A stretch of DNA of 15,503 nt from a virus (IMGVR_UViG_2579778894_000014:1-15503), one strand, 5' to 3'; positions 2,280 to 14,976 are shown, counted from the first letter of the stretch. Made by a program: numbers and translations. The notes: generated by a model from the sequence alone, not told the origin.

Positions 2280-2506
2280 CTTGTTAAATTTGTTAAAAAA
2301 GGAGGTTATTTAACATAATGTACGTTATAGGAACCACACGATCCCCGCTCGCAATAGATTTGCGATGAAAGGCCTATTTAATCAACTTAAGTGGTCCAGA
2401 ATGACGAAATTCGAGTGAATAAAAGGTGCATAAAAAAGGGCAAAAACTGCATAGCGTTTTTTCGCAGCGAAAGCCCTGTTTTATTAACTTTTCCCCAGAA
2501 TGGGGC

Positions 2507-2533
2507 AATAAAAAAGGCCCCCTTGCGGAAGCC
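2507..2533 (-). terminator. Intrinsic terminator downstream of the 113-aa ORF
   Basis: Read on the minus strand: GGCTTCC-GCAA-GGGGGCC (7-bp stem including two G-U pairs, GNRA-type loop) followed by TTTTTTATT. Confidence 0.45.
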
Positions 2534-2600
2534 TCTTCGTGATGAACTGTTTTCAACAGATATCAGGCTAATCGGCTTTTTGGAATTCCACAACTATTTT

Positions 2601-2973: not shown

Positions 2974-3396
2974 TTATGCCGCCGAGCAGCTCCTACGCAA
3001 AGTCCTGATAGCCTGAGGCTTTGACTGAACCGACTGATCCATTTCGAGCACCACATCCAGCATGGCTAAGCAACCGTCAATAAATCCCTCTGCCGCCTGA
3101 AGCCTCTTCAGAACGTGGGTGTGAGATACGCCGAGCTTCTCACCCATCGCCCGCACGGGCATGGCCTGGACGTAATGCCACTCAAGGAGCGTGCACAGAT
3201 ACGGATCTTTTTTCTTCAGGCAGCTCATAGCGGAGTTGATGATAAGACCGTCATTGTCACTGCATTTCAGCCTTCCAGACTGCGTCGCGGGTAGCAGATT
3301 CTTAAACCCGGCTGCAACAGGAGGAAAGTAGACGCTACCACCTTCACTCGCTGCCCAGCCACCCCAGCGCTCTAAAACCTGTTGAATATTACGCAT
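2974..3396 (-). CDS. Q: Late-gene antitermination protein Q (Phage_antitermQ family)
   Basis: 140 aa. N-terminus MRNIQQVLERWGGWAA...AAGFK and later KRLQAAEGFIDGCLAMLD resemble E. coli prophage Q proteins (QuuD-like) as I recall them. GAGGT SD upstream. Lies upstream of and co-directional with the lysis and packaging genes. Confidence 0.8.
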   Translation of the reverse strand: MRNIQQVLERWGGWAASEGGSVYFPPVAAGFKNLLPATQSGRLKCSDNDGLIINSAMSCLKKKDPYLCTLLEWHYVQAMPVRAMGEKLGVSHTHVLKRLQAAEGFIDGCLAMLDVVLEMDQSVQSKPQAIRTLRRSCSAA

Positions 3397-3989: not shown

Positions 3990-6251
3990 TTACAATCCAG
4001 ATTGCAAAATTTCGCAAGATTTATATATTTCGCGCAATTCTTCGTTGCTGAAATCGTTATTTTTTACAAGAATCCAAATCCTATATACAAACCCGTCAAT
4101 TTTTACGCGTACGGGTTCCCGCTTTGTTCTTTCTTTCAAAATGCGAGTAATATGCTTCTGGTTAATTTCTACATCCATTCCTGCTTCTGCCAGTATTGCG
4201 TTAACAATTTGTTGATAAGTCATTGCTGGCACAGGCGGATTATCCAGGATTTCAATAAGAGCAGCCTCCACATCGCTCTTATTGCTTTCAATCATCAGAA
4301 GGCGTTCTTTCGTCTCGGGGGCGCGCTGCCAGTTAAAGCGAGACAGGTCAACGCCCATTAGATACCAGTACACCTGGGCGATAAAGTCGCTGTCGCTTAG
4401 CGCACCGTACAGGCTGGCGTAATGCTCTTCAGTTGCGGCGAAGTCAGGGCCCCCCAGCACAGCTATACGTCGGTCTTCCTCTGGCAGCGCCAGCGCATCA
4501 AAGTGGTTGGTGTAGAACAGAAAGCCGGTGTATATATCCATCGTTTTTTTGCTGCCATATTTGCGGTTCACTTCAAACCGTGGTTCTGTCAGCACGTCAC
4601 GGATCTTATCGTTCACCTCATACCGCTTATCGTTTTCGCGCACCTCGTCAATGGTGCATAGAAGTGTATTGTACAGATAGTCATGGAACTGGTTATCGCA
4701 CAGGATCTTCATGCGAGTACGAGCACAGTTCCACGGGCCAAGCACGCGCTCCATTAACTGACTGACCCATCCTCTGCCCGTACCATGTGCGGTAGCCACA
4801 TGCAGAATAGAAATCGGGCATCGACGCTCCGGACGCTGAACCATCCACCCCAGACGGGCGATGAAAAACTCGCGCTGCCAGGCATCAGGTACCAGATACG
4901 CCATATGATTAAGGAACGTGGACACCTTACTTGTATCCGCTGTACGTGGATGCTCAGGCATATAAAATTCGTTTATCTCAAACCGCCCGTCGAAACGCTC
5001 GATAATACGTCCCGCACCGGGCTTATAGCCTGTCGTCTCAGCAATCTTCTTATGCCGATGCTCTATCCACCGTTTGGTTGCGGGAGTTGGTTGTCCTTTC
5101 CCTTCTGGCGGGAACTGGTAAGGCGCCATCAGGTTTTTGAACGACTTCATATCCATCATGCACTGATATGGCGGTCGGCTAAGATCACATACCTGGTCAC
5201 CCTCGATGACGTAGATAAAGCGTTCCAGAAAATGAGCTGTCATATCTGTATTAATATCGGTAAATTCAGGCTTATCGCCATCTTCAGCCACCGTGAGATC
5301 TTCGAACAGGGATTGCGTATAGCCGTAGCCTTCCAGCCAGTCGGCATCAGTAAGCCCCGCATCGGTGTTGTGCATGCTTTTAAAATGTCCCTGTTCAAAT
5401 CCCCCCGTCCCTTTTGGGAAATACTTAATGGATGTTTCGCTGCAACCGTTGCTGTATTCTGACTCATCCCGAAACGGTTTCAGATTGCGGGAACCATCAG
5501 AGCTGACTGACAGAGTCCACCCGTTCGCGTCAAGCCAGTCGGCGACATCATCTGTCGCGGAAGGATCAACACAGGAAAGGTCACGCTGACGTCCTGCACC
5601 TGCGGTATAGCTGTCTTTCACGGGTAAGTTATCCGCCAGACGCTGCCACAGGCTTTCGAGCTGTTCAGATGTAATTTTCAGAGGTTCGCCGGGCAAACCG
5701 CTGTCCCACTGAATACGTTCGCCTGCCGGATGGGTACCACAAGCCACAAACTGCTGGCCCTTAGCGAGCAGCTCTATTTGTTTGTTTTCGCCTTCCAGGC
5801 GGTGACCACGTTTACGGTAGTCGCCATCAACAGCAATCAGGTACAGGCATTTATGACTGTCAGCCCGCCAGCGACGTGGCGGAAGTTCCCCCAGGCATGA
5901 TAGGATAATATTGCGTACGATCTCCTGCATCCCGGCGTCATTGATATCGCAGTCCAGAGCCACCACCCCGTCGCCAGTACGAACGCAAATACCGTAATCG
6001 GGTTCGTTCGACCACCGGGCAAAATCGTTTTCCGTAACAACATAGTTAGCCCAGTCGGGGATACCAACAACCTTACGTTGGCCATTGTAGCGACTGGGGG
6101 TTTTGCCGAAATTATGAGACAGCTTGCTATTAGGCGACAGTTCTGCACAGGGATTGGACACCACAGGTAAAAGCCTGTCTGTCATCCCCAACACCAGATC
6201 GAAGTAGAACCACTCATCGGGCGTAGCTCCCCATGGTTTGTTATCAGACAT
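3990..6251 (-). CDS. Replication protein, primase-like (primase-polymerase-type N-terminal region; P4 alpha-like size and context)
   Basis: 753-aa ORF whose start overlaps the stop of the Cro-like gene, suggesting translational coupling. The N-terminal region contains VVALDCDI (a DxD-type catalytic-like motif) and GTHPAG. hhhhDE-like TIDEV is present in the C-terminal half. I could not find a canonical Walker A GxxxxGK[ST], so helicase activity is not supported from sequence. Iteron array lies immediately downstream. Confidence 0.65.
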   Translation of the reverse strand: MSDNKPWGATPDEWFYFDLVLGMTDRLLPVVSNPCAELSPNSKLSHNFGKTPSRYNGQRKVVGIPDWANYVVTENDFARWSNEPDYGICVRTGDGVVALDCDINDAGMQEIVRNIILSCLGELPPRRWRADSHKCLYLIAVDGDYRKRGHRLEGENKQIELLAKGQQFVACGTHPAGERIQWDSGLPGEPLKITSEQLESLWQRLADNLPVKDSYTAGAGRQRDLSCVDPSATDDVADWLDANGWTLSVSSDGSRNLKPFRDESEYSNGCSETSIKYFPKGTGGFEQGHFKSMHNTDAGLTDADWLEGYGYTQSLFEDLTVAEDGDKPEFTDINTDMTAHFLERFIYVIEGDQVCDLSRPPYQCMMDMKSFKNLMAPYQFPPEGKGQPTPATKRWIEHRHKKIAETTGYKPGAGRIIERFDGRFEINEFYMPEHPRTADTSKVSTFLNHMAYLVPDAWQREFFIARLGWMVQRPERRCPISILHVATAHGTGRGWVSQLMERVLGPWNCARTRMKILCDNQFHDYLYNTLLCTIDEVRENDKRYEVNDKIRDVLTEPRFEVNRKYGSKKTMDIYTGFLFYTNHFDALALPEEDRRIAVLGGPDFAATEEHYASLYGALSDSDFIAQVYWYLMGVDLSRFNWQRAPETKERLLMIESNKSDVEAALIEILDNPPVPAMTYQQIVNAILAEAGMDVEINQKHITRILKERTKREPVRVKIDGFVYRIWILVKNNDFSNEELREIYKSCEILQSGL

Positions 6252-6254
6252 GGG

Positions 6255-6455
6255 TTACGCCTTTTGTCTAGCTGTCACTTCCTGAAAAAGCTTTTCTATC
6301 GCACGTACTGTAGAAAAGCGAGGGTCAGAATGAACCCCGGTGAGAAGCCGACTAATAGAAGACTGCTTCACGCCTGCAATTTCGGCAATTTGGTTTTGGG
6401 TATACCCTGAATCAATCAAGCTTTTGACCATCTCTTGTGGTGTTAGTCCGGACAT
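6255..6455 (-). CDS. Cro-like HTH (XRE-family) DNA-binding protein
   Basis: 66 aa with helix-turn-helix signature QNQIAEIAGVKQSSISRLL. GGAGA SD 7 nt upstream. Divergent from the CI-type repressor across a 141-bp region and first gene of the rightward replication operon. Confidence 0.75.
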   Translation of the reverse strand: MSGLTPQEMVKSLIDSGYTQNQIAEIAGVKQSSISRLLTGVHSDPRFSTVRAIEKLFQEVTARQKA

Positions 6456-6596
6456 ATTTAAGTCTCCACTTTCGTCTATAGCGCAAATTTATACGAAAAC
6501 GGATTATTCAGCAATACAGCAATTCTATATCATCCTGTATTAAAATATCCGATAACGCATAATCACCGTCCCTGTATACAACATGGATGAATCCAA
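6456..6596. promoter_or_regulatory. Divergent operator/promoter region of the immunity switch (OR-like)
   Basis: 141-bp AT-rich region between the divergent cro-like and cI genes. Contains ATAACGCATAAT at 6552-6563, a motif repeated twice at the promoter downstream of cI. Candidate -10 TATAAA (complement of 6488-6493) and -35 TTGCTG (complement of 6509-6514) for the cro-side promoter, but spacing is only 15 bp, so the exact promoter is uncertain. Confidence 0.55.
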
Positions 6597-7271
6597 ATGA
6601 TTGATACTACCGATATCCTTTCTCAAAACATCAAGTACCTGATGGACAAAACCAAGATAAGCTCGATAACTGAGCTGGCACGTCGGTTACAGCTGAACCA
6701 ACCAACGCTACACAGGCTGGTATCAGGAGAGGTGAAAGATCCGAAATACGCAACGTTAAAGCAGATCGCCGACTACTTCCACGTGTCACCAATAGACCTG
6801 GCAGAAAGGAGCCTTCAAGAAATGGAGAAAGAGGACGCGACAGGTATAAAAACGTATATTTCTCTTAGGTTTAATAAAGTACCTGTTTTGGGAAACACTC
6901 AGCTAGGCGTTGGAGGACTTTGGAGCGACACCCAATATTCAGTAGGTAGCAGTGATGGTTTCATATACTGGCCGACAAAGGATGAAGATGCATACGCCCT
7001 GAAATGTGTTGGTGATTCAATGATGCCTAGAATCAAAGAGGGTGAGTTCGTAATCGTCGAACCCAACCACGACTACACTCCTGGTGATGAAGTACTTGTG
7101 GTTACCCGGGACGGTGAGGTCATGGTTAAAACCTTCTTGTTCGAACGCGATGGCCTGTTCCATCTAATATCTGTAAATGAAGATCATCCACCAGTCAGAG
7201 TACCACGCGAAAACATTGAAAAAATCCATTACGTGGCGGGGATCGCCAAATCCGCGCTACGCATGTACTAA
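6597..7271 (+). CDS. cI: CI-type prophage repressor (N-terminal HTH plus C-terminal LexA-like S24 peptidase domain)
   Basis: 224 aa. N-terminal HTH (ISSITELARRLQLNQPTLHRL). C-terminal CVGDSMMPRIKEGEFVIV with the GDSM serine nucleophile and a downstream VMVKTF lysine, typical of LexA/CI autocleaving repressors. Confidence 0.85.
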   Translation: MIDTTDILSQNIKYLMDKTKISSITELARRLQLNQPTLHRLVSGEVKDPKYATLKQIADYFHVSPIDLAERSLQEMEKEDATGIKTYISLRFNKVPVLGNTQLGVGGLWSDTQYSVGSSDGFIYWPTKDEDAYALKCVGDSMMPRIKEGEFVIVEPNHDYTPGDEVLVVTRDGEVMVKTFLFERDGLFHLISVNEDHPPVRVPRENIEKIHYVAGIAKSALRMY

Positions 7272-7301
7272 CCTTTACAGTCTGATAACTTACCTCTGAT
7301 C

Positions 7302-7335
7302 AAACCGCTCTCCACAAGGGCGGTTTTCTTATTTG
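7302..7335 (+). terminator. Intrinsic terminator after cI
   Basis: AAACCGC (7302-7308), 11-nt loop, GCGGTTT (7320-7326), followed by TCTTATTT. Confidence 0.5.
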
Positions 7336-7355
7336 CAAAATAATTCATTTTCGTA

Positions 7356-7384
7356 TTGACACAAAATCCCATAACGCATATAAA
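7356..7384 (+). promoter_or_regulatory. Strong sigma70-type promoter, pL-like early-left promoter, overlapped by operator-like repeats
   Basis: TTGACA (7356-7361), 17-bp spacer, TATAAA (7379-7384). ATAACGCATA (7371-7380) overlaps the spacer and -10, and ATACCGCATAAT (7389-7400) sits just downstream. Confidence 0.5.
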
Positions 7385-7420
7385 TACGATACCGCATAAT
7401 TAATGCATTTTCTAATACCA

Positions 7421-7432
7421 GCTCTTTAACAA
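7421..7432 (+). promoter_or_regulatory. boxA-like antitermination element in the early-left leader
   Basis: GCTCTTTAACAA matches the rrn/lambdoid boxA core (UGCUCUUUAACAA) as I recall it, about 30 nt downstream of the predicted transcription start. Confidence 0.45.
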
Positions 7433-7577
7433 ACAGAACCGCGTGACAGGTAAGCCGCAGTGCTCCTGGCAAAACGAAATAGCACCCGATGGGATCGAGG
7501 TAAGCGCCGAGTCCGTATGCGTACGGTAAGCGTAGAGGACAACACCGCGACGAACTGATAAGTCACGCAAGTTGAAA

Positions 7578-7606
7578 CGCCCCGATGATGGGGCGCTTAG
7601 TTCCTT
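7578..7606 (+). terminator. Hairpin with weak U-tract (possible leader terminator or pause site)
   Basis: CGCCCC-GATGAT-GGGGCG (6-bp stem) followed by CTTAGTTCCTTT. Confidence 0.3.
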
Positions 7607-7698
7607 TAACTCTGGGTGACCGGAAGGGTACCCATGCTTAAAGAAATTACTGGTTGTAAGGATCGTAATCCGTGATTGCCTTCCCCGGATTTTCATCT

Positions 7699-8217
7699 TC
7701 AGAAGGCAGTCGGGCCTCTAAAGCATTTCGGGTTGAACAGATAGGAAGCCCTACAGTACGAACAAACCATATTAACGACTCGCCCAAGGCCTGGCTTAGT
7801 AACCAGACCTTCCGCTTGCAATATAGATTTTCTCTTTTGCTCGTAGCAATTGGGACAAATATAAACCGGAGATTGGTCAGCATCTGCAGAAAGCTTGCTG
7901 CGATAGACCAGAGTACCCCGCATAGGCTGGTAAAGTTCATAGCTCGCCGCTTCAGCGGCCCAGTTCTCTTGCTTTACTTTCTCATTTTCCAGTTCAACAA
8001 TTTTCTCCTTAGCCGCAATCAGCAGCTCCTGAAGCGACATTTGCTGCATCTGAACATCCATTAGCTTATCGAGTAAGATGTGCGTCTTCTCTTTAACTGC
8101 ATAGTCGACAGTCAGATTCTGAATCTCTCTTGCTGCTCCAACCGCGCTTTTAATTGCTCCTCCCACACCGGATAACGATTCAGTTATCCGGGAAAGAATT
8201 CCTTTTTCTTCAGACAT
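7699..8217 (-). CDS. Hypothetical coiled-coil protein with C-terminal zinc-ribbon (CPNC...CSYC); cI-adjacent accessory gene
   Basis: 172-aa ORF on the strand opposite to the early-left transcript. Central heptad-like region (LQELLIAAKEKIVELENEKVKQENW) and C-terminal CxxC...CxxC. GAGAGA SD-like sequence upstream. Its promoter region carries two direct repeats ACTGTAGGGGT at 8234-8244 and 8268-8278. Confidence 0.65.
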   Translation of the reverse strand: MSEEKGILSRITESLSGVGGAIKSAVGAAREIQNLTVDYAVKEKTHILLDKLMDVQMQQMSLQELLIAAKEKIVELENEKVKQENWAAEAASYELYQPMRGTLVYRSKLSADADQSPVYICPNCYEQKRKSILQAEGLVTKPGLGRVVNMVCSYCRASYLFNPKCFRGPTAF

Positions 8218-8356
8218 ATCTAATCTCTCTCAAACTGTAGGGGTGAAGAGATATTAGACGATTTCTCACTGTAGGGGTACAAGGAGAACCACCTCGCCTG
8301 ATGTGGTTAAAAGCAGGCACTCGATGATATCCATGTAATTGCTGTGTGTAGTCTTT

Positions 8357-8382
8357 GCCCGCCGCAAGTGACGGGCTTTTTT
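8357..8382 (+). terminator. Intrinsic terminator on the plus strand upstream of the early-left genes
   Basis: GCCCG (8357-8361), 10-nt loop, CGGGC (8372-8376), followed by TTTTTT (8377-8382). Confidence 0.45.
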
Positions 8383-8420
8383 ATGTCTGAAAGCGCACTC
8401 GCAACAGCGTGCTCCCCGAT

Positions 8421-11410: not shown

Positions 11411-12040
11411 TCACTCAGGAATCTTAATCTTTCTCAATTCTTTATTTAGTTCACAGATCTTTTTCTTAGACGGGAAAGTATCATACATCCAAAAACCAAC
11501 AGTCTCTAAAACTATTATCATAACCATATACACAAGATAATTTAAAAGGCCTTCATTTTGCCCTATGGAAATAATGCAGATAATAGAAAAAAGGGTAAAC
11601 AGCACAAAACACAGAAAGGAAAACAGACGACTAATAATAAATAAAAAACCTGAAAAATCAACATTAATAAAAAACACTCCGTTATCTTTCTCTATATAAT
11701 TCTGAAGCTTAATCAACTGATTTATATACTGTCTTTTTTCTAATCTATTGCAAATGTAAATAACATCTCTTCGGTTATAAGATGATTGCAATTTCAGCGC
11801 ATCACGAATAATTTTATCATTTATTCTTTTTTCTATGGCACTCTTATCCTCCTCATCCAGATAACGTTCATACTTAACTAAATATAAAATTAACTTCTTA
11901 ACATATTTAGGCTCTTTATACTTATAATTAAAAATGATCTTTCTTATCCAGACTCCCATAACAATCAAACATGAAAAAATATATCCAGCTATTTTCTCCA
12001 GATGCTCTGTATGGTCAATCAAGTATTGGATCATATGCAT
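11411..12040 (-). CDS. Membrane protein of unknown function in an AT-rich inserted segment (moron)
   Basis: 209-aa ORF on the opposite strand to the flanking replication genes. The segment ~11400-12080 is conspicuously AT-rich (roughly 30% GC by eye) against ~50-55% in the neighbours. Predicted N-terminal TM (IAGYIFSCLIVMGVWI), a Lys/Glu-rich middle region and 2 C-terminal TM helices (FLFIISRLFSFLCFVLFTLFSIICIISI; LVYMVMIIVLETVGFWM). Confidence 0.65.
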   Translation of the reverse strand: MHMIQYLIDHTEHLEKIAGYIFSCLIVMGVWIRKIIFNYKYKEPKYVKKLILYLVKYERYLDEEDKSAIEKRINDKIIRDALKLQSSYNRRDVIYICNRLEKRQYINQLIKLQNYIEKDNGVFFINVDFSGFLFIISRLFSFLCFVLFTLFSIICIISIGQNEGLLNYLVYMVMIIVLETVGFWMYDTFPSKKKICELNKELRKIKIPE

Positions 12041-14214: not shown

Positions 14215-14976
14215 ATGCAGGAACTAACTGAAATGCCGATCACCTATCCATACCCGAGAGAAACTTTTCCTGACTTTTTGAGGGAGTGTGGGTTCACCAA
14301 TTTTTCCCACGAACAGCGTGAGACTTGTGACTGCTATCGTTTAACGAATGGCGTAATTGTTAACCTTTACACCACCCGGACCATTCAGTTTCAAGGTAAC
14401 CCTCAAGAACGTCCCAATGTTGAAACTGCAATAATGACCCATTTAGGAACGCCGCCCACGGCAACACCACTAGCCGTAGAACAGCCATCTGAGCTCCCCA
14501 AAAAGATATTCATTGTTCACGGCCATGACCATACTGCAAAGGAGCAACTTGAGCTAATCCTTCATAAACTTGGATTACCAGACCATTTCATTTTGCAGAA
14601 TACGGGAGGGACTGGACTCACCATTATTGAAGAGCTTGAACGTGAAATTGGGCAAGGACAAACTGCTACCCGTTTCGGGATTGTTCTTTTGACACCTGAT
14701 GATATGGGATACTCAAAGCGCGCCGGTGAAGCAGAAATCCAACCCCGCGCAAGACAGAACGTTGTACTCGAGATGGGTATGCTTCTTTCGTCCTTAGGGC
14801 GCAGCAATGTAGCAATCCTTCAGAAACAGCACCTAGAACAGCCTTCTGATGCTAACGGGATTTTGTATCTGAATTTCAACGACCATGTACGTGAAACAGT
14901 TCCTCGTCTAGTGCAACGGTTACAAAATTCTGGTTTCGAATTTACACAAGCTCAAATAGCTAACGCTTCCTCGTAA
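14215..14976 (+). CDS. Two-domain protein: unknown N-terminal domain plus C-terminal TIR-like Rossmannoid domain (CAP12/PycTIR-type family)
   Basis: 253-aa ORF with AAGGAA SD upstream; last gene of the operon before a strong terminator. The C-terminal ~150 aa contains KKIFIVHGHDH, GGTGLTIIEELE, FGIVLLTPDD and NVVLEMGMLLSSLG, which I recognise as the pattern of prokaryotic TIR-like nucleotide-binding domains (conserved Glu followed by Gly). The N-terminal ~95 aa has no recognised family. Domain assignment is from memory, not a search. Confidence 0.6.
   Translation: MQELTEMPITYPYPRETFPDFLRECGFTNFSHEQRETCDCYRLTNGVIVNLYTTRTIQFQGNPQERPNVETAIMTHLGTPPTATPLAVEQPSELPKKIFIVHGHDHTAKEQLELILHKLGLPDHFILQNTGGTGLTIIEELEREIGQGQTATRFGIVLLTPDDMGYSKRAGEAEIQPRARQNVVLEMGMLLSSLGRSNVAILQKQHLEQPSDANGILYLNFNDHVRETVPRLVQRLQNSGFEFTQAQIANASS

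What the first reader, a model, noticed from the sequence alone, without database searches (positions are those of the whole stretch)
7699..8290. cI-adjacent, convergently oriented 172-aa coiled-coil/zinc-ribbon gene with direct repeats in its promoter
The slot next to the repressor gene is where lambdoid phages carry lysogen-expressed exclusion genes (rexAB, sieB). Here a 172-aa ORF sits on the strand opposite to the pL-like early transcript, so early transcription would run antisense through it. The protein has a heptad-like central region and a C-terminal CxxC...CxxC ribbon (CPNCYEQ...CSYC). Its upstream region contains two 11-bp direct repeats ACTGTAGGGGT, 34 bp apart. No family recognised; candidate prophage-encoded exclusion or defence factor, or a regulator.
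Basis: partly seen in the sequence, partly recalled or inferred. Interest (0 to 1): 0.6.

Follow-up and report, generated by a model that had tools for sequence, protein, structure and literature searches.

The report
Rip1-type phage-defence gene in sieB slot
The 172-aa gene next to the prophage repressor is a homologue of Rip1, a recently described prophage protein that kills the infected cell by forming a membrane pore when it meets ring-shaped proteins of an invading phage. Its "promoter repeats" belong to the promoter and antisense-RNA cassette that phages lambda and P22 use for their exclusion gene sieB.

Summary
ORF 7699-8217 (-) is a conserved gene, and the two ACTGTAGGGGT copies (8234-8244, 8268-8278) are conserved far beyond chance.

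The protein matches Rip1 of phage HK446 over its full length (PDB 9oox: E 4.7e-47, about 52% identity; the fold also matches) and falls in phrog_1244. Rip1 is a single-protein, pore-forming abortive-infection defence triggered by small-terminase or portal rings (Patel et al., Nature 2026).

HK446 rip1 occupies the sieB slot, as this gene does.

The 8218-8325 stretch is 83-87% identical to the lambda/P22 sieB promoter and sas antisense-RNA region. By P22's annotation, the proximal repeat starts at the transcription start and the distal repeat overlies the -35.

Across related cassettes the two copies change in concert. On the + strand the distal copy sits in a hairpin supported by covariation.

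The window allele carries a 1-nt frameshift (172 versus 189 aa). It removes only a tail that HK446 Rip1 lacks.

A repressor-controlled pL-like promoter (7356-7384) does read antisense through the gene.

Side finding: an RprA-like 3' sRNA module at 8337-8386.

Verdict: a new member of a known kind, of moderate interest.

The parts
7699..8217 (-). rip1 homologue, 172-aa allele: N-terminal small-residue-rich amphipathic helix, long second helix, C-terminal beta/CxxC...CxxC domain
7647..7732 (-). Frameshift site (G/C run at 7730-7732) and the out-of-frame remnant of the ancestral C-terminal tail (...ENPGKAITDYDPYNQ) found in the 189-aa form
7572..7595 (-). Hairpin CGCCCC-ATCATC-GGGGCG followed by TTTCAA on the - strand. 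Candidate, weak intrinsic terminator of rip1. Not listed by the scan tool, which requires at least 5 T in the tail.
   Evidence: direct reading
8234..8244 (-). Proximal repeat (ACCCCTACAGT in the gene's sense). By alignment with P22's annotated 'sieB RNA start site', the predicted transcription start is at 8244. The 5'UTR is 27 nt with SD GAGAGAG.
8251..8256 (-). Predicted -10 hexamer TAATAT of the sieB-type promoter. It aligns with TAAACT, the likeliest -10 read here within P22's annotated 31-nt sieB promoter.
8268..8278 (-). Distal repeat, overlying the -35 region of the sieB-type promoter. On the + strand it forms the 5' arm and GGGG loop of hairpin SL-I.
8213..8325 (+). Region homologous to the P22 sas antisense RNA (covers the rip1 start codon, SD and 5'UTR, both repeats and two hairpins). 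The ends are inferred from P22 and not measured here.
8266..8285 (+). SL-I hairpin of the sas-like RNA (8266-8273 pairs with 8278-8285; loop GGGG 8274-8277). 6 of 7 pairs show compensatory changes.
8288..8307 (+). SL-II hairpin AACCAC...GTGGTT. Invariant in all cassettes, but it was used as the search pattern, so it carries no covariation information.
8337..8386 (+). RprA-like 3' module: 24 nt identical to E. coli K-12 rprA (AATTGCTGTGTGTAGTCTTTGCCC, 8337-8360), then a GC hairpin and a T run (terminator 8357-8382)
7333..7398 (+). pL-like early promoter (TTGACA 7356-7361, 17 nt, TATAAA 7379-7384) embedded in operator-like repeats shared with the cI-cro intergenic region. It points through rip1 in antisense.
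   Evidence: Not listed because that scan requires T at position 6 of the -10.
6597..7326 (+). cI-type repressor gene (HTH + Peptidase_S24) and its terminator (7302-7326)

Best explanation
The ORF encodes a Rip1-family ("ring interacting pore 1") antiphage protein carried as a lysogen-expressed moron in the sieB slot of a temperate E. coli phage.

By homology with characterised Rip1, it would work as follows:
- It is harmless on its own.
- When a superinfecting phage makes oligomeric ring proteins (small terminase or portal), the C-terminal domain binds around the ring.
- Rip1 assembles into a ring of its own, and its N-terminal amphipathic helices form a membrane pore.
- The pore kills the cell before the invading phage matures (abortive infection).

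Transcription is from a sieB-type sigma-70 promoter: -10 TAATAT at 8256-8251, start at about 8244. The two "direct repeats" are parts of a conserved, portable cassette (hairpin, distal repeat, -10, proximal repeat at +1, SD) that lambda, P22, HK446, HK620 and many other phages place in front of SieB, Rip1 or other cargo.

On the opposite strand the cassette corresponds to the P22 sas antisense RNA. The inferred step is this: on induction or infection, transcription from the CI-controlled pL-like promoter (7356-7384) crosses rip1 in antisense and yields a sas-like RNA that masks the rip1 SD and AUG, so the phage stops making Rip1 during its own lytic growth.

What is shown and what is inferred:
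- Shown here: homology, fold, genomic slot, cassette homology, concerted repeat evolution, hairpin covariation.
- Inferred: the trigger, pore formation, expression in the lysogen, and antisense shut-off.
For: Family:
- phmmer against PDB gives 9oox_L, 'ring interacting pore 1 (Rip1)' of phage HK446: E 4.7e-47, query 3-166 against 3-162 of 164.
- Foldseek of the AF2 model against 9oox_M: E 2.6e-10, TM 0.88 normalised by target, 49% identity.
- tblastn: 52% identity to HK446, 28-33% to HK620 hkaP and to orf25 of Pseudomonas D3112/DMS3/MP38.
- phrog_1244, E 1.8e-38.

Mechanism of Rip1: PMC13434031 section 5, summarising Patel et al. 2026, Nature 651:1060.

Slot:
- HK446 rip1 lies between N and the anti-restriction gene.
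- HK620 hkaP is in the same place and is annotated 'putative superinfection exclusion protein'.
- The Yersinia homologue lies next to an N-peptide gene.

Cassette:
- 83-87% identity to the sieB upstream region in about 1100 E. coli genomes and 158 phage records.
- P22 RefSeq annotates the sieB promoter and RNA start inside the matched stretch (alignment).
- The published 127-nt P22A-sas RNA sequence contains both repeats and the hairpin.

Repeats:
- At least 6 repeat sequences change in both copies together.
- SL-I covariation: 94.5% of cells paired, score 0.376 against at most 0.092 for slid controls, 0 of 500 shuffles reach it, and the G-U pairs fit only the + strand.

pL-like promoter and operators.
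Against: - No expression, trigger or toxicity data exist for this gene. At 52% identity, trigger specificity cannot be transferred from HK446 Rip1.
- The primary Rip1 paper could not be read here. The mechanism is taken from a review and from the PDB entry title.
- The window allele is frameshifted at the C-terminus, which could affect function, although HK446 Rip1 (164 aa) lacks that tail.
- N-terminal amphipathicity is only marginally above shuffles (muH 0.44 against a 95th percentile of 0.41).
- PADLOC 2023 and NCBIfam have no model for it, so family assignment rests on one solved homologue and a PHROG.
- No sas-type promoter could be recognised on the + strand, and the fold of 8213-8386 is not more stable than shuffles (z = -0.57).
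- The covariation comes from about 5-6 sequence types, so the number of independent events is small.
- The closest relatives of the same phage type (L010, L011) lack the ACCCCTACAG repeats.
Confidence: 0.85

Rival explanations
1. The protein is a zinc-ribbon nucleic-acid-binding regulator that acts on the direct repeats upstream of its own gene (autoregulation), as the first reader suggested as an alternative.
For: There is a CxxC...CxxC motif. One source (JGI/IMG) names a cluster member 'predicted nucleic acid-binding Zn-ribbon protein'. The repeats sit at -35 and +1, where a repressor would act.
Against: There is full-length homology to a pore-forming defence protein whose C-terminal half contacts a terminase ring. 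The same repeats precede unrelated cargo genes (SieB of P22 and lambda types, a 106-aa membrane protein and others), so the cargo protein cannot be their general ligand. Pfam finds no DNA-binding domain.
Confidence: 0.03
2. The two repeats are DNA sites for a host or phage protein (an activator or repressor of the sieB-type promoter), not RNA elements. Their concerted change reflects different host factors in different hosts.
For: The spacing is fixed at about 34 bp, and the positions are -35 and +1. The -35 hexamer is poor, which would fit activator dependence. The repeat types may follow host groups; Photorhabdus has its own variant. The proximal copy has no hairpin partner that would explain its conservation.
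Against: No candidate binding protein is encoded in the cassette. The motif is the same in phages of different immunity (lambda, P22, HK446, this phage), which excludes CI and Cro. The distal copy lies in a hairpin with compensatory changes and strand-specific G-U pairs. An abundant RNA containing both copies is documented in P22.
Confidence: 0.25
3. The window copy is a decaying, non-functional allele: the frameshift has inactivated the gene and it is on its way to being a pseudogene.
For: A 1-nt insertion replaces the last 26 residues of the 189-aa form, including the DYDPY motif conserved in P0001, P0003 and P0011. The 189-aa form is much commoner, on 1000 or more contigs against 101.
Against: Everything that aligns with the structurally characterised 164-aa HK446 Rip1 (to residue 166) is retained. 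Many homologues of 166-175 aa lack the tail. The allele is otherwise intact, and its promoter, SD and cassette are 100% identical to those of an isolated, presumably viable phage.
Confidence: 0.1
4. The gene is a functional analogue of SieB proper, working by SieB's still undefined mechanism (arrest of macromolecular synthesis in mid-infection) with an Esc-type internal product, and not by Rip1-type pore formation.
For: It has the same slot, the same promoter and the same antisense cassette as sieB. There is a conserved internal Met cluster (M53/M57/M60).
Against: There is no sequence similarity to SieB: the Pfam scan is empty, and the two fall in separate BLAST clusters. The homology to Rip1 is strong. 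No SD-like sequence was seen before the internal Met codons (direct reading).
Confidence: 0.03

Closest known systems
Rip1 (ring interacting pore 1) of Escherichia phage HK446; PDB 9oox; Patel et al. 2026, Nature 651:1060
   Same: Full-length homology (E 4.7e-47, about 52% identity) and the same predicted fold. Both are single-gene systems in a prophage, in the same slot between the early-left regulator region and the early-left genes, on the opposite strand. Both have the same upstream cassette with both CTGTAGGGGT repeats and the AACCAC/GTGGTT hairpin.
   Different: About half the residues differ, so the trigger spectrum is unknown. The host phage is not lambdoid in its replication module (PrimPol-helicase, DUF2800, Gp2.5-like SSB, family A polymerase) and has no N gene upstream. 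The window allele has a frameshifted C-terminus. Downstream of the cassette there is an RprA-like terminator module in place of the HK446 sequence.
SieB/Esc with sas antisense RNA of phage P22 (Ranade & Poteete 1993) and lambda sieB
   Same: Same genomic slot and orientation. The promoter, transcription-start region and antisense-RNA region are 83-87% identical. Both are prophage-expressed abortive-infection functions.
   Different: The protein is unrelated. No Esc-type second start is evident. The sas-like RNA, its origin and its effect are inferred here, not shown.
HK620 hkaP and the HK629/HK630 homologues
   Same: Same family (28% identity over 90% of the query), same slot, same cassette. 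hkaP has been annotated as a putative superinfection exclusion protein since the HK620 genome paper.
   Different: A distant subfamily. No experimental data are known to me.
RprA sRNA (Rfam RF00034)
   Same: 24 consecutive identical nucleotides plus an equivalent terminator hairpin and U-tail at 8337-8386.
   Different: The Rfam score is 47.5, below the gathering score of 70. The 5' 60 nt are sas-like, not RprA-like, and the K-12 sequence 5' of the shared block has no counterpart here. From my own knowledge that upstream stretch includes the rpoS-pairing region; this was not tested.

Membership tests
Rip1 (ring interacting pore 1) antiphage defence | Full-length sequence homology to an experimentally characterised Rip1 | tested here: met
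   phmmer against PDB 9oox_L: E 4.7e-47, query 3-166 against 3-162 of 164. tblastn to HK446: 52.4% identity.
Rip1 (ring interacting pore 1) antiphage defence | Fold: helical N-terminal part plus a C-terminal domain that contacts the ring | tested here: met
   AF2 model with pLDDT 75.9. Foldseek against 9oox_M: E 2.6e-10, TM 0.88 normalised by target, rmsd 2.3 over 129 columns. The model was built without templates.
Rip1 (ring interacting pore 1) antiphage defence | N-terminal amphipathic helix (the pore-forming part) | tested here: inconclusive
   Helix 7-34 is predicted, but at low pLDDT (49-61). The maximum hydrophobic moment is 0.44, against a 95th percentile of 0.41 for shuffles. There is a run of small-xxx-small motifs at 16-29.
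Rip1 (ring interacting pore 1) antiphage defence | Single-gene system carried by a prophage | tested here: met
   The window is 98% identical to the isolated temperate phage vB_EcoM-606R2. The gene stands alone on its strand between its own promoter and a hairpin.
Rip1 (ring interacting pore 1) antiphage defence | Non-toxic alone; activated by oligomeric small terminase or portal; forms a 12-mer ring and a membrane pore; protects against phages | not testable with these tools
   Known only for Pseudomonas and HK446 Rip1.
SieB superinfection exclusion protein | Protein homology to SieB | tested here: not met
   No Pfam hit. SieB-type cargos and Rip1-type cargos form separate BLAST clusters.
SieB superinfection exclusion protein | sieB slot and sieB promoter | tested here: met
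sas antisense RNA (P22) | Sequence homology to the sas RNA | tested here: met
   86% identity over window 8235-8320 to P22 (H106). The published 127-nt P22A-sas sequence spans the aligned stretch.
sas antisense RNA (P22) | Conserved secondary structure on the antisense strand | tested here: met
   SL-I has 6 of 7 pairs with compensatory change and strand-specific G-U pairs. Caveat: the sequences fall into few independent lineages.
sas antisense RNA (P22) | RNA is made and switches translation of the overlapped gene | not testable with these tools
   No transcript data. No + strand promoter was recognised (direct reading).
RprA sRNA (RF00034) | Reaches the Rfam gathering score | tested here: not met
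   47.5 bits against a gathering score of 70, E 0.0019.
RprA sRNA (RF00034) | Homology across the whole RNA, including the 5' and central regions | tested here: not met
   Only the last 50 nt or so align with K-12 rprA. The 5' part is homologous to the sieB/sas cassette.

The most novel reading that the evidence does not exclude
The conserved element is a general, portable "self-immunity switch" for prophage defence morons. An antisense (sas-type) RNA carries a hairpin that presents a second copy of the complement of the mRNA's first 10 nucleotides (GGGG loop against CCCC at +2 to +5). That copy serves as a fast recognition site, which would explain why the two repeats evolve in concert across at least 6 sequence types and about 20 cargo families (SieB, Rip1, others). 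In this phage lineage the antisense RNA would end in a 3' module taken from, or shared with, the host sRNA RprA. That could give it RprA-like Hfq binding and possibly cross-talk with RprA targets during induction.
Probability: 0.2. Interest if true: 0.65.

Novelty: new member of a known kind. Interest (0 to 1): 0.38.

Why it matters
- It gives a function to a "hypothetical protein" present in more than a thousand E. coli, Klebsiella and Enterobacter assemblies: a Rip1-type pore-forming abortive-infection defence.
- It shows that Rip1 genes ride in the classical sieB slot, using sieB's promoter and antisense cassette. Decades-old P22 and lambda genetics (the sas/Esc self-protection logic) may therefore apply directly to a defence system described only in 2026.
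- The cassette with its co-varying repeats marks a hotspot where other, still unknown, prophage defence cargos can be found.

Tried and rejected
- Pfam, NCBIfam and PADLOC scans of the ORF gave nothing. The CRM1_repeat_2 hit (E 0.036) was dismissed as noise.
- The 94-aa ORF 7412-7696 (-) and the 130-aa ORF 7672-8064 (+) were rejected as coding. They have no family hits, they lie antisense or in a leader region, and the first has implausible composition.
- I looked for a put-like or other structured RNA in the leader 7391-7625. There is no Rfam hit, the fold z-score is +0.51, and there is little conservation outside this phage group.
- The fold of the whole 8213-8386 RNA is not more stable than shuffles.
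- My first collection scans used a hairpin pattern with the wrong loop length (NNN instead of NN). The single genome-contig scan was therefore spent mostly on chance hits, and only Yersinia nurmii was relevant. The corrected viral scan gave the data.
- The first literature search was badly specified.
- The primary Rip1 paper is not in the held library.
- No paper in the library mentions an RprA-like phage RNA.
- No sigma-70 promoter for the sas-like RNA could be recognised in P22 or in the window.

Full report
**1. The observation**

The window is 98% identical to temperate E. coli phages of the vB_EcoM-606R2 group. Its layout is:

| Coordinates | Strand | Feature |
|---|---|---|
| 192-764 | - | Small terminase |
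| 826-2173 | - | Lysis genes |
| 2974-3396 | - | Q antiterminator |
| 3990-6251 | - | PrimPol-helicase |
| 6255-6455 | - | cro-like HTH gene |
| 6597-7271 | + | cI-type HTH/S24 repressor |
| 7699-8217 | - | The ORF in question |
| from 8442 | + | Early operon: 49-aa ORF, 300-aa ORF, DUF2800 nuclease, Gp2.5-like SSB, family A polymerase, TIR protein |

The two ACTGTAGGGGT copies lie at 8234-8244 and 8268-8278 and are the only exact copies in the window.

**2. The protein**

Pfam, NCBIfam and PADLOC 2023 have no model for it. It matches phrog_1244 (unknown function) at E 1.8e-38.

The large protein database gives 16 homologues from E. coli, Rahnella, Yersinia and Photorhabdus. In their alignment C121, C124 and C155 are invariant, C152 is nearly so, and W86, Y93, Y105 and R106 are invariant.

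An AlphaFold2 model built from that alignment (pLDDT 75.9) shows helices 7-34 and 39-90, then a beta-rich domain holding the four cysteines.

Foldseek against the PDB gave one real match, 9oox chains M and L: [quoted passage not shown]. The scores were E 2.6e-10, TM 0.88 normalised by target, and 49% identity.

A plain sequence search confirms homology over the whole length: E 4.7e-47, residues 3-166 against 3-162 of the 164-aa "ring interacting pore 1 (Rip1)".

tblastn against phage genomes places the protein in a family that includes:
- HK446, ev099 and vB_EcoP-720R6 (52-53% identity);
- HK620 hkaP, HK629 and HK630 (28%);
- orf25 of the Pseudomonas D3112, DMS3 and MP38 group (about 32%).

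**3. What Rip1 is**

I could not read the primary paper (Patel, McCarthy, Taylor et al. 2026, Nature 651:1060). A 2026 review summarises it (PMC13434031, section 5):
- Rip1 is a prophage-encoded single protein that is not toxic alone.
- Escape mutants map to portal in Pseudomonas phages and to small terminase in E. coli phages.
- Twelve Rip1 monomers form a ring around an 11-mer small-terminase ring.
- The N-terminal part is an amphipathic helix, and the C-terminal half contacts the ring.
- The complex forms a pore that permeabilises liposomes and cells, so the infected cell lyses before the phage matures.
- Relatives are widespread in proteobacterial prophages.

Two further sources agree.

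The window protein is therefore best read as a new member of this family. The trigger and the pore activity are inferred by homology, not shown.

The N-terminal helix is only marginally amphipathic by hydrophobic moment: 0.44, against a 95th percentile of 0.41 for shuffles. It does carry a run of small-xxx-small motifs at residues 16-29.

**4. The allele**

Compared with phage 606R2, the window has one extra base in the run at 7730-7732. The reading frame changes after ...SYLFN and ends at 172 aa. The commoner form is 189 aa and ends ...ENPGKAITDYDPYNQ; its DYDPY motif recurs in P0003 and P0011.

The exact 172-aa sequence occurs on 101 contigs, including the 5.57-Mb chromosome of E. coli O55:H7 DEC5E. 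It is therefore an inherited allele, not an error.

HK446 Rip1 and many homologues of 166-175 aa lack this tail, and everything that aligns to HK446 Rip1 is retained. I consider loss of function unlikely (about 0.1).

**5. The slot**

In HK446, rip1 (gp37) lies between the N gene and an anti-restriction gene, on the opposite strand to both. In lambda and P22 that place is occupied by sieB.

HK620 hkaP sits in the same place and has long been annotated as a putative superinfection exclusion protein. A Yersinia homologue lies beside an N-peptide gene.

In Photorhabdus the gene sits antisense inside the late operon, just upstream of the small terminase gene. That recalls the Pseudomonas Rip1 position between the terminase genes.

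In the window there is no N gene. Downstream of the cI terminator (7302-7326) there is instead a near-consensus promoter: TTGACA 7356-7361, 17 nt, TATAAA 7379-7384. It is wrapped in 17-24-nt sequences that recur in the cI-cro intergenic region:
- direct-repeat family 6544-6561, 7363-7380 and 7381-7398;
- inverted pair 6491-6514 and 7333-7356.

This looks like a repressor-controlled pL equivalent.

**6. The repeats**

The stretch 8230-8320 is 83-87% identical to the sieB-ral intergenic region of lambda and lambdoid prophages. The match occurs in about 1100 of 5426 complete E. coli genomes and in 158 phage records.

Both repeats, and the hairpin AACCAC...GTGGTT beyond them, are invariant in lambda, P22, HK446, HK620 and the window.

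The P22 RefSeq record annotates the experimentally mapped "sieB RNA start site" and "promoter" inside this stretch. Transferred through the alignment:
- the rip1 transcript should start at 8244, the first base of the proximal repeat;
- the -10 is TAATAT (8256-8251), aligning with TAAACT, my reading of the -10 within P22's annotated promoter;
- the distal repeat overlies a poor -35.

On the other strand, the 127-nt P22A-sas RNA found by small-RNA sequencing (PMC13397905, Table 2) is this same sequence. It runs from just inside the sieB start codon, through both repeats and the hairpin.

In P22, sas is the antisense RNA that switches translation from SieB to its inhibitor Esc, which lets P22 escape its own exclusion system.

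**7. Why two copies**

I used the hairpin as an anchor and collected 85 distinct cassettes from viral contigs.
- Thirty-nine have an exact direct repeat of 8 nt or more at 28-39 nt spacing, against 7 of 1700 shuffles.
- The repeat is not one sequence. It is ACCCCTACAG, TCCCCAACAAC, TTCCACAGTCAA, CCCCAATGCAA, CCCCCACAA or CCCCAACAG, and ACCCCTACAA in Photorhabdus.
- In each case both copies carry the same variant, so the two copies are constrained to be alike.

On the sas-sense (+) strand, RNAalifold places the distal copy in a hairpin: window 8266-8273 pairs with 8278-8285, with a GGGG loop.
- Six of its seven pairs show compensatory changes, and the G-U pairs fit only this strand.
- 94.5% of cells are paired. 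The covariation score is 0.376, against at most 0.092 when the partners are slid, and none of 500 shuffles reach it.
- The caveat is that the sequences fall into about five or six lineages.

My reading is an inference. The antisense RNA would display, in a hairpin, a second copy of the complement of the mRNA's first ten nucleotides, and this copy would act as a recognition site. The rival reading, a DNA-binding host or phage factor acting at -35 and +1, is not excluded (about 0.25).

CI, Cro and the cargo protein are unlikely ligands. The motif is shared by phages of different immunity and precedes unrelated cargos.

**8. Cargo diversity**

Downstream of the cassette I found these cargos:

| Cargo | Cassettes |
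|---|---|
| P22-type SieB | 23 |
| Rip1 family | 20 |
| 106-aa membrane protein | 12 |
| Lambda-type SieB | 10 |
| Many small unknowns, including other coiled-coil or Zn-ribbon proteins | remainder |

The cassette is thus a portable expression and regulation unit for lysogen-expressed genes, and rip1 is one of its common cargos.

The two closest relatives of the window's own phage type (L010, L011) have a different upstream region without these repeats. The window and 606R2 version therefore looks like a recombinant that acquired the lambdoid cassette.

**9. Side finding: an RprA-like module**

An Rfam scan at relaxed threshold matched RprA at 8273-8386 (+): 47.5 bits against a gathering score of 70, E 0.0019.

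Alignment with K-12 rprA shows 24 consecutive identical bases (AATTGCTGTGTGTAGTCTTTGCCC, 8337-8360), followed by an equivalent terminator hairpin and U-run. The 5' half is not RprA-like; it is the sas-like region.

The module recurs in several places:
- in L011, with a compensated terminator stem;
- in a related prophage that lacks rip1;
- at about 85% identity in N4-like Erwinia phages.

No paper in the held library mentions it. It may be the terminator and Hfq-binding end of the antisense or leader RNA. It is not a member of RF00034 by the curated threshold.

**10. Verdict**

The defence interpretation is supported, the regulator alternative is not, and the family is known (Rip1, 2026).

This is a new member of a known kind. 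Two points may be new: rip1 shares the sieB promoter and sas cassette, and the cassette's repeats co-vary.

| Claim | Confidence |
|---|---|
| Rip1 family membership | about 0.93 |
| Rip1-type mechanism operating here | about 0.75 |
| Antisense shut-off | about 0.5 |

Noticed in passing
window 8337-8386 (+); also L011 upstream of 5001, L162 2501-2571, and Erwinia phages Ea9-2, Frozen and Rexella: RprA-like 3' module: 24 nt identical to E. coli K-12 rprA, plus a terminator. It lies just upstream of the early-left operon. It is present even in a related prophage that lacks rip1, and it shows about 85% matches in N4-like Erwinia phages. It scores below the Rfam gathering score, and no literature was found.
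   Followed up: partly
window 14215-14976 (+): A 253-aa TIR-domain protein matches the PADLOC candidate defence system PDC-S35 (E 6.8e-109) and Pfam CAP12-PCTIR_TIR (E 2.9e-31). It is a second likely defence gene, at the end of the early operon.
   Followed up: no
window 7392-7698 (+): A leader of about 300 nt lies between the pL-like promoter and the 3' end of rip1. It has no plausible ORF, contains GGTAAGC three times, and contains a hairpin at 7578-7595 that could stop transcription in either direction. With the terminator at 8357-8382 this makes two barriers before the early genes, yet no N-like gene is present. No Rfam hit, and no significant fold.
   Followed up: partly
window 7730-7732 and 7647-7732 (-): A 1-nt insertion truncates the protein to 172 aa. 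The lost tail of the 189-aa form ends in a DYDPY motif conserved in distant homologues (P0003, P0011), whose role is unknown.
   Followed up: yes
L042-L161 (viral contigs), downstream of the AACCAC..GGTGGT hairpin: The sieB/sas-type cassette precedes about 20 unrelated cargo families. Examples are a 106-aa membrane protein (12 loci), 61-97-aa proteins, and a 136-aa coiled-coil/CxxC protein in L075. This looks like a hotspot of uncharacterised prophage morons.
   Followed up: partly
L009 4845-5501 (Photorhabdus): The rip1 homologue, with the same cassette (both repeats changed to ACCCCTACAA), sits antisense inside the late operon directly upstream of the small terminase gene. Small terminase is the kind of protein that triggers Rip1.
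   Followed up: partly
window 11411-12040 (-): A 209-aa ORF on the opposite strand inside the replication module (phrog_10579, unknown function; no Pfam or PADLOC hit). It is another moron-like insertion.
   Followed up: no
window 2505-2536 (-): A weak Rfam match to ctRNA_p42d (26 bits, E 0.051). It is essentially a GC hairpin plus a U-run, so probably an ordinary terminator in the region between the Q gene and the lysis genes.
   Followed up: no
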